DNA of 64,000 nt from the human T2T-CHM13v2.0 reference genome, Homo sapiens: NCBI RefSeq assembly GCF_009914755.1, contig NC_060938.1; one strand, written 5' to 3'. Positions 18,570-45,664 of this stretch are shown here, one piece after another (within the stretch, counting starts at the first letter, position 1; each line of letters starts with the position of its first letter). The notes under the pieces were generated by a model. It saw only the letters and a list, made by a program, of their open reading frames with translations, did no database searches and was not told the DNA's origin. The position numbers and the translations under genes were made by a program.

Positions 18570-21500
18570 TTTTTTTTAAATTTTATTATTTTTATACTTT
18601 AAGTTTTAGGGTACATGTGCACAACGTGCAGGTTTGTTACTTATGTATACATGTGCCATGTTGGTGTGCTGCACCCATTAACTCCTCATTTAGCATTAGG
18701 TATATCTCCTAATACTATCCCTCCCCCCTTCCCCCACCCCACAACAGGCCCGGGTGTGTGATGTTCCCCTTCCTGTGTCCATGTGTTCTCATTGTTCAAT
18801 TCCCACCTATGAGTGAGAATATGCGGTGTTTGGTTTTTTGTCCATGCGATAGTTTGCTGAGAATGATGGTTTCCAGCTTCATCCATGTCCCTACAAAGGA
18901 CATGAACTCATCCTTGTTTATGGCTGCATAGTATTCCATGGTGTGTATGTGCCACATTTTCTTAATCCAGTCTATCATTGTTGGACATTTGGGTTGGTTC
19001 CAAGTCTTTGCTATTATGAATAGTGCCATAATAAACATACGTGTGCATGTGTCTTTATAGCAGCACGATTTATAATTCTTTGGGTATATACCCAGTAATG
19101 GGATGGCTGGGTCAAATGGTATTTCTAGTTCTAGATCCCTGAGGAATCGCCACACTGACTTCCACAGTGGTTGAACTAGTTTACAGTCCCACCAACAGTG
19201 TAAAAGTGTTCCTATTTCTCCACATCCTCTCCAGCACCTGTTGTTTCCTGACTTTTTAATGATTGCCATTCTAACTAGTGTGAGATGGTATCTCACTGTG
19301 GTTTTGATTTGCATTTCTCTGATGGCCAGTGATGATGAGCATTTTTTCGAGTGTTTTTTGGCAGCATAAATATCTTCTTTTGAGAAGTGTCTGTTCATAT
19401 CCTTTGCCCACTTTTTGATGGGTTTTTTTTTTTCCTTGTAAATTTGTTTGAGTTCTTTGTAGATTCTGGATATTAGCCCTTTGTCAGATGAGTAGGTTGC
19501 GAAAATTTTCTCCCATTCTGTAGGTTGCCTGTTCACTCTGATGGTGGTTTCTTTTGCTGTGCAGAAGCTCTTTAGTTTAATTAGATCCCATTTGTCAATT
19601 TTGGCTTTTGTTGCCATTGCTTTTGGTGTTTTAGACATGAAGTCCTTGCCCATGCCTATGTCTTGAATGGTATTGCCTAGGTTTTCTTCTAGGGTTTTTA
19701 TGGTTAGACCTAAATTTCTAACATGTAACTCTTTAATCCATCTTGAATTAATTTTTGTATAAGGTGTAAGGAAGGGATCCAGTTTCAGCTTACTACATGT
19801 GGCTAGCCAGTTTTCCCAGCACCATTTATTAAATAGGGAATCCTTTCCCCATTGCTTGTTTTTGTCAGGTTTGTCAAAGATCAGATAGTTGTAGATATGT
19901 GGCATTATTTCTGAGAGCTCTGTTTTGTTCCATTGGTCTATATCTCTGTTGTGGTACAAGTACCATGCTGTTTTGGTTACTGTAGCCTTGTAGTATAGTT
20001 TGAAGTCAGGTAGTGTTATGCCTCCAGCTTTGTTCTTTTGGCTTAGGATTGATTCGATGATGCAGACTCTTTTTTGGTTCCATATGAACTTTAAAGTAGT
20101 TTTTTCCAATTCTGTGAACAAAGTCATTGGTAGCTTGATGGGGATGGCATTGAATCTATAAATTACCTTGGGCAGTATGGCCATTTTCACAATATTGATT
20201 CTTCCTACCCATGAGCATGGAATGTTCTTCCTTTTGTTTGTATCCTCTTTTATTTCATTGAGCAGTGGTTTGTAGTTCTCCTTGAAGAGGTCCTACACAT
20301 CCCTTGTAAGGTGGATTCCTAGGTATTTTATTCTCTTTGAAGCAATCGTGAATGGGAGTTCACTCATGATTTGGCTCTCTGTTTGTCTGTTATTGGTGTA
20401 TAAGAATGCTTGTGATTTTTGCACATTGATTTTGTATCCTGAGACTTTGCTGAAGTTGCTTATCAGCTTAAGGAGATTTTGGGCTGAGATGATGGGGTTT
20501 TCTAGATATACAATCATGTACATCTGCAAACAGGGACAATTTGACTTCGTCTTTTCCTAATTGAATGCCCTTTATTTCCTTCTCCTGCCTGATTGCCCTG
20601 ACCAGAACTTCCAACACTATGTTGAATAGGAGTGGTGAGAGAGGGCATCCCTGTCTTGTGCCAGTTTTCAAAGGGAATGCTTCCAGTTTTCGTCCATTCA
20701 GTATGATATTGGCTGTGGGCTTGTCATAGATAGCTCCTATTATTTTGAGATACGTCCCATCAGTACCTAATTTATTGAGAGTTTTTAGCATGAAGGGCAG
20801 TTGAATTTTGTCAAAGGCCTTTTCTGCATCTATTGAGATAATCATGTGGTTTTTGTCTTTGGTTCCGTTTATATGCTGGATTACATTTATTGATTTGTGT
20901 CTGTTGAACCAGCCTTGCATCCCAGGGATGAAGCCCACTTGATCATGGTGGATAAGCTTTTTGATGTGCTGCTGGATTCGGTTTGCCAGTATTTTATTGA
21001 GGATTTTTGTACCAATGTTCATCAAGGATATTGGCCTAAAATTATCTTTTTTTGTTGTGTCTCTGCCAGGTTTTGGTATCAGGATGATGCTGGCCTCATC
21101 AAATGAGTTAGGAAGGATTCCCTCTTTTTCTATTGATTGGAATAGTTTCAGAAGGAATGGTACCAGCTCCTCTTTGTACCTCTGGTAGAATTCGGCTGTG
21201 AATCCATCTGGTCCTGGACTTTTTTTGGTTGGTAAGCTATTAATTATTGTCTCAATTTCAGAGCCTGTTATTGTTCTATTCAGAGATTCCACTTCTTCCT
21301 GGTTTAGTCTTGGGAGGGTGTATGTATGGAGGAATTTATCCATTTCTTCTAGATTTTCTAGTTTATTTGCGTAGAGGTATCTATAGTATTCTCTGACGGT
21401 AGTTTGTATTTCTGTGGGATCGGTGGTGATATCCCCTTTGTCATTTTTTATTGCGTCTATTTGATTCTTCTGTCTTTTCTTCTTTATTAGTTGCTAGCGG

Positions 21501-22381
21501 TCTATCTATTTTGTTGATCTTTTCAAAAAACCAGTTCCTGGATTCATTGATTTTTTGAAGGGTTTTTTGTGTCTCTATTTCCTTCAGTTCTGCTCTGATC
21601 TTAGTTATTTCTCACCTTCTGTTCGCTTTTGAATGTGTTTGCTCTTGCTTCTCTAGTTCTTTTAATTGTGATGTTAGGGTGTCAAATTTAGATCTTTCCT
21701 GCTTTCTCTTGTGGGCATTTAGTGCTATAAATTTTCCTCTACACACTGCTTTTAATGTGACCCAGAGATTCTGGTATGTTGTGTCTTTGTTCTCGTTCAT
21801 TTCAAAGAACATCTTTATTTCTGCCTTCATTTCATTATGTACCCAGTAGTCATTCAGGAGCAGGTTGTTCAGTTTCCATGTAGTTGAGCGGTTTTGAGTG
21901 AGTTTCTTAATCCTCAGTCCTAGTTTGATTGCACTGTGGTCTGAGAGACAGTTTGTTATAATTTCTCTTCTTTTACATTTGCTGAGGAGTGCTTTACTTC
22001 CAACTATGTGGTCAATTTTGGAATAGGTGTCATGTGGTGCTGAAAAGAATGCATATTCTGTTGACTTGGGGTGGAGAGTTCTGTAGATGTCTATTAGGTC
22101 CGCTTGGTGCAGAGCTGAGTTCAATTCCTGGATATCCTTGTTGACTTTCTGTCTCGTTGATCTGTCTAATGTTGACGGTGGGGTGTTAAAGTCTCCCATT
22201 ATTATTGTGTGGGAGTCTAAGTCTCTTTGTAGGTCACTAAGGACTTGCTTTATGAATCTGGGTCCTCCTGTTATTGGGTGCATATACATTTAGGATAGTT
22301 ACCTCTTCTTGTTGAATTGACCCCTTTACCATTATGTGATGGCCTTCTTTGTCTCTTTTGATCTTTGTTGGTTTGAAGTCT
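18570..22381 (-). mobile_element. L1PA (PA3-PA5-like), 5'-truncated within the endonuclease domain; ORF2 frameshifted
   Basis: ORFs 21612..22289 (EN: GDFNTP, SDHSAIK), 20468..21343 (RT) and 18796..20190 (C-terminal, 464 aa); 3'UTR and T-tract at 18570; no TSD found. Confidence 0.98.
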
Positions 22382-45200: not shown

Positions 45201-45664
45201 TTTGTTGATCTTTTCAAAGAACAGCTCCTGGATTCATTGATTTTTTTGAAGGGTTTTTTGTGTCTCTATTTCCTTCAGTTGTGCTCAGATCTTAAGTTAT
45301 TTCTTGCCTTCTGCTGGCTTGTGAATGTGTTTGCTTTTGCTTCTCTAGTTCTTTTAATTGTGATGTTAGGGTGTTAATTTTAGATCTTTCCTGCTTTCTC
45401 TTGTGGGCATTTAGTGCTATAAATTTCCCTCTACACACTGCTTTGAATGTGTCCCACTGATTCTGGTATGTTGTGTCTTTGTTCTCGTTGGTTTCAAAGA
45501 ACATCTTTATTTCTGCCTTCATTTCGTTATGTACCCAGTAGTCATTCAGGAGCAGGTTGTTCAGTTTCCATGTAGTTGAGCGGTTTTGAGTGAGTCTTAA
45601 TCCTGAGTTCTAGTTTGATTGCACTGTGGTCTGAGAGACAGTTTGTTATAATTTCTGTTCTTTT
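42263..45664 (-). mobile_element. L1PA (PA3-PA5-like), 5'-truncated; ORF2 frameshifted
   Basis: ORF 43630..44712 (RT with FADD motif) plus 43094..43597, 42711..43097, 44709..45125; TSD AA(T/C)ATTTTACT at 42252-42262 and 45665-45675. Confidence 0.98.

What the first reader, a model, noticed from the sequence alone, without database searches (positions are those of the whole stretch)
18570..45664. Two L1PA copies 24 kb apart share six apparently private substitutions
Seen: both minus-strand L1s carry the same bases at 18916/42616, 19077/42776, 20119/43810, 20601/44291, 20799/44489 and 20901/44591. These give AINKDEF, YPKNYK, MTLFTE, EVLVRA, IQLPF and WFNR, where I recall consensus AIK(K/N)DEF, YPKDYK, MTFFTE, EVLARA, IQQPF and WFNI. 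The copies differ elsewhere (KNKQW/KNKKW, YKELK/YNELK, AAKKH/AANRH), have different flanks and 5' ends, and the right copy has its own TSD. Inference: patchy non-allelic gene conversion between neighbours, or two insertions from one source element at one locus, which is not expected for L1. The pair is also an NAHR substrate for a ~24-kb deletion or duplication.
Basis: partly seen in the sequence, partly recalled or inferred. Interest (0 to 1): 0.8.

Follow-up and report, generated by a model that had tools for sequence, protein, structure and literature searches.

The report
Neighbouring L1 copies swapped short patches
Two old, broken L1 retrotransposon copies 24 kb apart in an intron of SLC35F4 share six rare base changes that no other copy in the genome combines, most likely because short stretches were copied from one to the other, a known kind of event between nearby repeats.

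Summary
Copy A (18582-22381) and copy B (42278-45671) are minus-strand, 5'-truncated L1PA elements, 94.5% identical. They carry the same base at all six named sites. None of 28 dispersed relatives, nor an older L1 in the window, has any of the six. All six changes are non-CpG and four are transversions.

Exact 24-mers around the six alleles occur 11 to 211 times genome-wide. Only A and B appear in more than one list. This is therefore not an ordinary sub-subfamily. The flanks are not homologous and B has its own target-site duplication, so it is not a segmental duplication either.

By overall similarity the two are not each other's best hits. A maximum-likelihood tree does not join them, though it does not reject joining them.

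The discriminating result is that each shared allele sits inside one of the ten longest letter-perfect A-B runs (65-130 bp; permutation p about 0.001). Gene conversion predicts this; a shared source element does not.

Best reading, at about 70%: several short patches of non-allelic gene conversion between neighbours. This is a known process, best documented for Alu. The NAHR claim is weak, since the longest perfect match is 130 bp. Ape orthologues, which I could not reach, would decide the matter.

The parts
18571..22381 (-). Copy A: 5'-truncated L1PA element. The poly(A) end is at the left, and the body aligns to dispersed copies from about 18582 to 22381.
   Evidence: It is 92.8-95.0% identical to 28 dispersed copies. 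No clear target-site duplication was found.
42263..45671 (-). Copy B: a shorter 5'-truncated L1PA element. It aligns to A from 42278 to 45671.
   Evidence: 94.5% identity to A over 3408 columns.
42252..42262 (.). Left copy of B's target-site duplication (AATATTTTACT).
45665..45675 (.). Right copy of B's target-site duplication (AACATTTTACT, one mismatch). It overlaps the last aligned L1 bases.
18848..18928 (.). Perfect A-B run of 81 bp (B 42548-42628). It holds shared allele 18916 and the older-type base at 18913.
19067..19157 (.). Perfect A-B run of 91 bp (B 42766-42856). It holds shared allele 19077.
20078..20207 (.). Perfect A-B run of 130 bp (B 43769-43898), the longest of all. It holds shared allele 20119.
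20568..20668 (.). Perfect A-B run of 101 bp (B 44258-44358). It holds shared allele 20601.
20782..20846 (.). Perfect A-B run of 65 bp (B 44472-44536). It holds shared alleles 20798 and 20799.
20900..21009 (.). Perfect A-B run of 110 bp (B 44590-44699). It holds shared allele 20901.

Best explanation
A and B are two independent, dead L1PA insertions of about the same age, lying in the same orientation 23.7 kb apart in an intron of SLC35F4. Well after both had inserted, short stretches of tens to a few hundred bases were copied between them by non-allelic (interlocus) gene conversion, probably in four to six separate patches.

Each patch carried one or two mutations that had arisen privately in the donor copy. 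It also erased the private mutations of the acceptor. Today the six alleles are therefore shared by the pair alone, and each sits in an unusually long perfect match.

Shown here: the alleles, their uniqueness to the pair, the independent flanks, and the link between the alleles and the perfect runs. Inferred: the mechanism, the number of events, and the timing. Pairwise divergence inside the patches is at most about 2.1% against 5.2% overall, so the patches are younger than the copies. The direction of transfer is unknown.
For: (1) The six alleles are derived and exclusive to the pair. None of 28 dispersed copies has any of them. Those copies were chosen for similarity to A across four of the six sites, which biases them towards sharing. 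An older L1 in the window has the majority base at all six. A-B has 7 pair-exclusive alleles against at most 4 in the 405 other pairs.

(2) Exact 24-mers around the alleles occur 11, 21, 133, 19, 19 and 211 times in the whole assembly, A and B included. Only A and B fall in more than one list. That check used the four complete lists and the first 100 rows of the 133-hit list. The 211-hit list was not cross-checked.

(3) Of 20 single-allele carriers fetched and aligned, none has more than 3 of the 6 alleles.

(4) Flanks share only scattered repeat pieces at 74-90% identity, and B has its own target-site duplication. The copies were therefore not duplicated together.

(5) The six sites lie in perfect A-B runs of 81, 91, 130, 101, 65 and 110 bp, which are six of the ten longest runs. 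The mean is 96.3 bp against 47.2 bp for a random identical site. Permutation gives p = 0.0009 for the mean and 0.0006 for the minimum.

(6) Mismatch density within 30 bp of the sites is 7 of 366 (1.9%) against 171 of 3033 (5.6%) elsewhere, p = 0.004.

(7) The same six places are not intrinsically slow-evolving. With the six sites ignored, A against 36 other copies averages 46.5 bp (maximum 77.8), and B averages 42.5 bp (maximum 70.7). In both cases 0 of 36 reach 96.3.

(8) Literature, from passages read in two reviews. Non-allelic gene conversion between neighbouring Alu copies was detected through shared non-diagnostic mutations. It is reported to fall off with distance, mostly within about 10 kb (PMC8230782; PMC6598467).
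Against: The ML tree of 44 copies does not join A and B. B branches just below A on the ladder, with supports 84/50 and 92/94. However, holding them together costs only 3.6 lnL (AU p = 0.48). With the eight sites removed it costs 14.3 lnL (p = 0.34). Tree incongruence, a classic sign of conversion, is therefore not demonstrated.

Taken one by one, the perfect runs are not unique. Copies elsewhere that were picked for the same 24-mer match A or B over similar lengths. Examples are B with a chr8 copy at 114 bp and A with a chr14 copy at 138 bp. A-B ranks 2nd of 28, about 4th of 21, 2nd of 15 and 2nd of 21 pairs at the four transversion sites.

The overall number of long runs between A and B is ordinary for pairs of this divergence. 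Of 134 such pairs, 7.5% have at least 4 runs of 100 bp or more.

Four to six separate short events between one pair is a lot.

They were checked only by their absence from the other lists.

No orthologues from other primates could be examined.
Confidence: 0.7

Rival explanations
1. Both copies were made from one rare source lineage, a tiny sub-subfamily that already carried the six changes, and both happened to land 24 kb apart.
For: The six changes are spread over 2 kb, not in one block. All six are amino-acid changes in ORF2 and none is a stop. The A+B clade is not rejected (AU p = 0.48). Both copies sit at nearly the same stage of the L1 ladder: 33 diagnostic sites are old in both and 102 are young in both.
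Against: No third member was found. Only A and B occur in more than one 24-mer list. My own estimate is that a further copy of like age would keep each 24-mer intact with probability about 0.55. It would then appear in at least two of the four complete lists about 75% of the time.

For a lineage of two, landing within 24 kb by chance has odds of about 1.5e-5 (my arithmetic: 2 x 23.7 kb over 3.1 Gb).

This reading does not predict that the six sites lie in the longest perfect runs (p about 0.001).

At 7 fairly clean ladder sites A has the younger state and B the older, against 2 the other way. That is awkward for one side lineage.
Confidence: 0.15
2. A third L1 copy nearby, or several, donated the patches to both A and B. 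The pair shares the alleles without either copy having been the donor.
For: The 20901 allele is also found in three other chr14 copies of different ages, at 51.72, 52.25 and 53.72 Mb. The 20119 allele is found in a copy at 51.31 Mb that also has 19077T. Beside two of the shared alleles both copies carry an older-type base, at 18913 and 20798. That would fit an older donor.
Against: No copy in the assembly combines two or more of the four transversion alleles. The older L1s in the window have the majority base at the sites they cover. The chr14 neighbours share no excess of A's or B's private alleles: 3-4, against 0-7 in the others.
Confidence: 0.08
3. A and B are the two halves of an old segmental or tandem duplication of one insertion.
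For: Same orientation, near each other, 94.5% identical.
Against: Homology stops at the L1 ends. The flanks share only scattered repeat fragments. The 5' truncation points differ by about 400 bp. B has its own target-site duplication.
Confidence: 0.02

Closest known systems
Non-allelic gene conversion between neighbouring Alu elements (Aleshin and Zhi 2010, known to me only as cited in PMC8230782 and PMC6598467)
   Same: The signal is the same: non-diagnostic mutations shared by physically close copies of a dispersed repeat. The inferred process is the same, and proximity matters.
   Different: Here the elements are 3.4-3.8 kb L1 fragments, not 300-bp Alus. The distance is 23.7 kb, beyond the roughly 10 kb range quoted for Alu. 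This is a single dissected pair, not a genome-wide statistic.
L1 gene conversion reported for single loci (Burton et al. [quoted passage not shown]
   Same: An existing L1 copy has part of its sequence replaced from another L1.
   Different: As I recall, those cases replace an old copy with sequence from a young active family. Here two old, dead copies of like age appear to have exchanged short patches.
Ordinary L1PA sub-subfamily defined by shared diagnostic substitutions
   Same: Several copies share derived substitutions in ORF2.
   Different: A sub-subfamily has many dispersed members. This allele set is found in two copies only, and they are neighbours.

Membership tests
Non-allelic (interlocus) gene conversion between dispersed repeats | Two paralogous copies of independent origin (different flanks, own insertion marks) | tested here: met
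   Flanks are not homologous. Truncation points differ. B has a target-site duplication. None was found for A.
Non-allelic (interlocus) gene conversion between dispersed repeats | Derived, non-diagnostic variants shared by the pair and absent from other family members | tested here: met
   0 of 28 dispersed copies carry any of the six. A-B has 7 pair-exclusive alleles against at most 4 in 405 other pairs. Only A and B occur in more than one genome-wide list.
Non-allelic (interlocus) gene conversion between dispersed repeats | Tracts of raised identity around the shared variants, against normal divergence elsewhere | tested here: met
   Runs are 65-130 bp with mean 96 against 47 expected, p = 0.0009. 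0 of 36 controls reach this for A or for B. Qualifier: the single runs are not unique.
Non-allelic (interlocus) gene conversion between dispersed repeats | Conflict between the tree of the tracts and the tree of the rest | tested here: inconclusive
   A and B are not sisters in the ML tree. Sisterhood is not rejected either with the sites (p = 0.48) or without them (p = 0.34).
Non-allelic (interlocus) gene conversion between dispersed repeats | Orthologous loci in related species showing the state before conversion | not testable with these tools
   No primate genomes are held. Only the window's own assembly could be searched.
L1PA sub-subfamily from one source lineage | Several dispersed copies carrying the same set of diagnostic alleles | tested here: not met
   
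Segmental or tandem duplication | Homology continues into the flanks at the same divergence | tested here: not met
L1PA (primate LINE-1) element | Close similarity to thousands of dispersed genomic copies, an ORF2-coding body, and an A-rich 3' end | tested here: met
   The first look found 5218 and 6435 candidates. ORF2 peptides were found. There are T-rich runs at the left ends. The numbered subfamily was not determined. The ladder position and end branches of 0.025-0.030 suggest a middle-aged L1PA, which is an inference.

The most novel reading that the evidence does not exclude
Rare L1 alleles are shared regionally, over 10 kb to about 2 Mb, among L1 copies of different ages all over the genome. 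Short-tract gene conversion among L1 fragments would then be pervasive and would reach much further than the roughly 10 kb reported for Alu. The A-B pair would be one well-resolved node of such a local exchange network on chr14.

The leads are as follows. In the four complete lists, leaving A and B out, carriers of one rare allele form 1, 1, 4 and 4 pairs within 1 Mb. A uniform null expects 0.02 to 0.11. The fetched near pairs are independent insertions 86-96% identical, not duplicated segments. Among 406 unselected pairs, the two with the most exclusive alleles are the two pairs of physical neighbours under 100 kb apart.

The null ignores uneven L1 density. The carriers were also found through alleles chosen from A and B.
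Probability: 0.3. Interest if true: 0.65.

Novelty: new member of a known kind. Interest (0 to 1): 0.4.

Why it matters
The pair itself has no evident function. Both copies are dead fragments in an intron.

It matters in three modest ways. First, it is a clean, datable example of sequence exchange between old L1 fragments. Such exchange is mostly documented for Alu and for young L1s. Second, exchange of this kind blurs subfamily assignment and age estimates made from L1 divergence. Third, if the regional sharing of rare alleles seen in passing is general, interlocus conversion among L1s would be a wider force on repeat evolution and local mutation patterns than is usually assumed.

Tried and rejected
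- **Ordinary sub-subfamily.** It was rejected.
- **Segmental duplication.** Rejected.
- **Reciprocal best hits.** Tried. Uninformative, because ranking follows the age of each copy.
- **Tree and AU tests.** Tried. They neither support nor reject a clade.
- **Excess of long perfect runs between A and B overall.** Not present.
- **Excess sharing of A's or B's private alleles with the chr14 neighbours.** Not present.
- **Runs among neighbours versus non-neighbours.** I asked whether within-region pairs that share a rare allele have longer perfect runs than between-region pairs. There is no clear difference: 62 against 65 bp at 20901, and 49 against 45 bp at 18916. Runs are longer at 20799 and 20119, but on very few pairs.
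- **Searches that failed.** The solved-structure search with a raw six-frame stretch failed on stop codons and was not pursued. Aleshin and Zhi 2010 is not held. The 42 remaining places could not be fetched.
- **Literature searches.** Searches for L1-specific neighbour conversion found reviews and Alu work but no genome-wide L1 study. That is four searches of the held library, not proof that none exists.
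Full report
**What is there.**
The window is an intronic stretch of SLC35F4 (hub annotation). Copy A aligns to dispersed L1 copies from about 18582 to 22381. Copy B aligns to A from 42278 to 45671. Both are on the minus strand with the A-rich 3' end at the left.

A and B are 94.5% identical over 3408 columns. A reaches about 400 bp further 5' than B. The first look at the window's own assembly found 5218 and 6435 candidate relatives, of which 40 were scored each time. 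These are therefore ordinary members of a large L1PA population. I did not determine the numbered subfamily.

**The observation.**
All six coordinate pairs carry the same base in A and B, and the quoted peptides are present in both. The peptides said to differ do differ.

I aligned A and B with 28 dispersed copies. These were the best-scored hits to A 20050-20950, a stretch that holds four of the six sites, so the sample leans towards sharing. I also aligned them with two older L1 pieces from the window.

None of the dispersed copies has any of the six alleles. That is 0 of 26 with coverage at 18916 and 19077, and 0 of 28 at the other four. The older element at 53691-57585 has the majority base at all six. 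The alleles are therefore derived.

None of the six is at a CpG and four are transversions (read). All six change an amino acid.

An unbiased list of all columns where A equals B but differs from the majority has 21 entries. About a dozen of these agree with the older outgroup, and they simply show that A and B are a little older than most of the hits. A has 78 private differences and B has 67.

As an empirical null, I counted alleles exclusive to a pair among 406 pairs of 29 copies. The count is 0 to 3 for 404 pairs, 4 for one pair, and 7 for A-B.

**Is it a sub-subfamily?**
Exact 24-mers centred on the six alleles occur 11, 21, 133, 19, 19 and 211 times in the 3.1-Gb assembly, A and B included. 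The two large counts belong to the two transitions. These numbers are what recurrent mutation in some thousands of copies would give (my estimate).

Only A and B occur in more than one list. That check used the four complete lists and the first 100 rows of the 133-hit list; the 211-hit list was not cross-checked.

I fetched and aligned 20 of the 62 other carriers of a transversion allele. None has more than three of the six. One chr8 copy has 19077T, 20601A and 20799A, and most have one.

A third copy of like age should keep each 24-mer intact with probability about 0.55. It should then show in two or more of the four complete lists about three times in four (my arithmetic). More than one or two hidden members is therefore unlikely.

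**Is it a duplication?**
No. Outside the L1s, the three flanking blocks share only scattered repeat fragments at 74-90% identity. B is bounded by an 11-bp direct repeat with one mismatch, flush with its tail and its 5' end. A has no clear one.

**Are they closest relatives?**
Not by overall similarity. B is the 23rd row of 40 for A, with 21 copies on other chromosomes ahead of it. A is not among the 40 listed for B.

An ML tree of 44 copies is the usual L1 ladder. B branches just below a chr14 copy (L033) and A just above it, with supports of 84/50 and 92/94. Holding A and B together costs 3.6 log-likelihood units (AU p = 0.48). With the six sites plus 18913 and 20798 removed it costs 14.3 units (p = 0.34).

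At fairly clean ladder sites A has the younger state and B the older at seven positions, with the reverse at two. These sites are interleaved with the shared alleles. This hints that the copies came from slightly different stages and that the sharing is patchy. The tree tests do not make that firm.

**The discriminating test.**
If the alleles came from a common source, their positions should be unrelated to where A and B later picked up private mutations. If they were copied from one copy to the other after insertion, each should sit in a stretch where the two are still alike.

They do. The perfect runs that hold the six sites are 81, 91, 130, 101, 65 and 110 bp, checked on the raw sequence. 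These are six of the ten longest of all the perfect A-B runs between the 178 differing columns.

- The mean is 96.3 bp against 47.2 bp for a random identical site. This null already allows for the greater chance of landing in a long run.
- Permutation gives p = 0.0009 for the mean and 0.0006 for the minimum.
- Mismatch density is 1.9% within 30 bp of the sites against 5.6% elsewhere (p = 0.004). The contrast fades by 200 bp, where it is 4.75% against 5.7% (p = 0.12).

The places are not slow-evolving in themselves. With the six sites ignored, A against 36 other copies gives a mean of 46.5 bp and B gives 42.5 bp. None of the 36 reaches 96.3 in either case. Of 703 pairs, nine reach it. The other eight are young pairs 95.7-97.5% identical, with minima of 15-56 bp against 65 bp for A-B.

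**Qualifiers.**
- Copies elsewhere that were picked for the very same 24-mer match A or B about as far at single sites.
- The overall number of long runs between A and B is ordinary.
- The signal is the co-location of alleles and runs, not the runs themselves.

**Reading.**
Several short patches of non-allelic gene conversion between neighbours fit four things together. They fit the uniqueness of the allele set, the 23.7-kb distance, the independent insertion marks and the local identity.

If every run end were a later mutation, divergence inside the patches would be 12 ends over 578 bp. That is about 2.1%, against 5.2% overall. The events are therefore younger than the copies, and possibly much younger. 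The donor cannot be named here.

Passages in two reviews describe the same logic for Alu. Non-diagnostic mutations shared by neighbours are reported to fall off within about 10 kb (PMC8230782; PMC6598467). The primary paper is not held. Four literature searches found no equivalent genome-wide study for L1.

**The NAHR remark.**
The copies are direct repeats. However, 94.5% identity and a longest perfect match of 130 bp make them a poor substrate by the usual requirement for several hundred identical bases, which I recall rather than checked. No variant catalogue could be searched.

**Seen in passing.**
Carriers of single rare alleles are clustered. The 20901 allele is found in three more chr14 copies, at 51.72, 52.25 and 53.72 Mb. 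These sit at different ladder stages. It is also found in three chr8 copies within 370 kb. Other lists hold pairs 11, 23 and 49 kb apart.

Against a uniform null, and leaving A and B out, the four complete lists hold 1, 1, 4 and 4 pairs within 1 Mb. The null expects 0.02 to 0.11. The fetched near pairs are independent insertions, not duplicated blocks.

The second-highest count of pair-exclusive alleles among the 406 pairs belongs to two chr7 copies 56 kb apart.

The null ignores uneven L1 density, so this is a lead and not a result.

Noticed in passing
Outside the window: G000 C14 51722849, 52250206, 53723959 (loci L031-L033); C8 59592346, 59883033, 59960545 (L041-L043): The rare 20901 allele (19 exact 24-mer hits genome-wide) is carried by three further chr14 L1 copies within 2 Mb of the window. 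It is also carried by three chr8 copies within 370 kb. The copies are of different ages and are not duplicated segments.
   Followed up: partly
Outside the window: C6 72999323/73010076; C9 5120775/5143476; C23 94693879/94742910; C3 50935245/51282808: Other carriers of single rare alleles also come as near pairs (11 kb, 23 kb, 49 kb, 348 kb). This is far more often than a uniform null gives. The null does not allow for uneven L1 density.
   Followed up: partly
Loci L006 and L012 (C7 14784345 and 14840645, 56 kb apart): Two of the unselected hits to A are physical neighbours. They are sisters in the tree (99/95), are 97.4% identical and share 4 pair-exclusive alleles, the second-highest of 406 pairs. 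Their flanks were not in the fetched stretch, so a duplication is not excluded.
   Followed up: partly
Locus L034 (C14 51308426, 544 kb before copy A): This older copy carries 20119C together with 19077T and the CpG-decay base at 20191. It matches A perfectly for 138 bp and B for 127 bp around 20119.
   Followed up: partly
window 19706-19730: Copy A has a private small rearrangement or indel here relative to B and the other copies. It coincides with a gap in NCBI's repeat mask (19707-19724).
   Followed up: no
window 53691-57585 (+), 3-1274 and 3271-3649: There are older L1 pieces 87-90% identical to A, in the opposite orientation. They were used here as outgroups and carry the majority base at the shared sites they cover.
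   Followed up: partly
window 45843-46090: An Alu-like element with a long T run lies about 170 bp beyond the 5' end of copy B. It was not examined.
   Followed up: no
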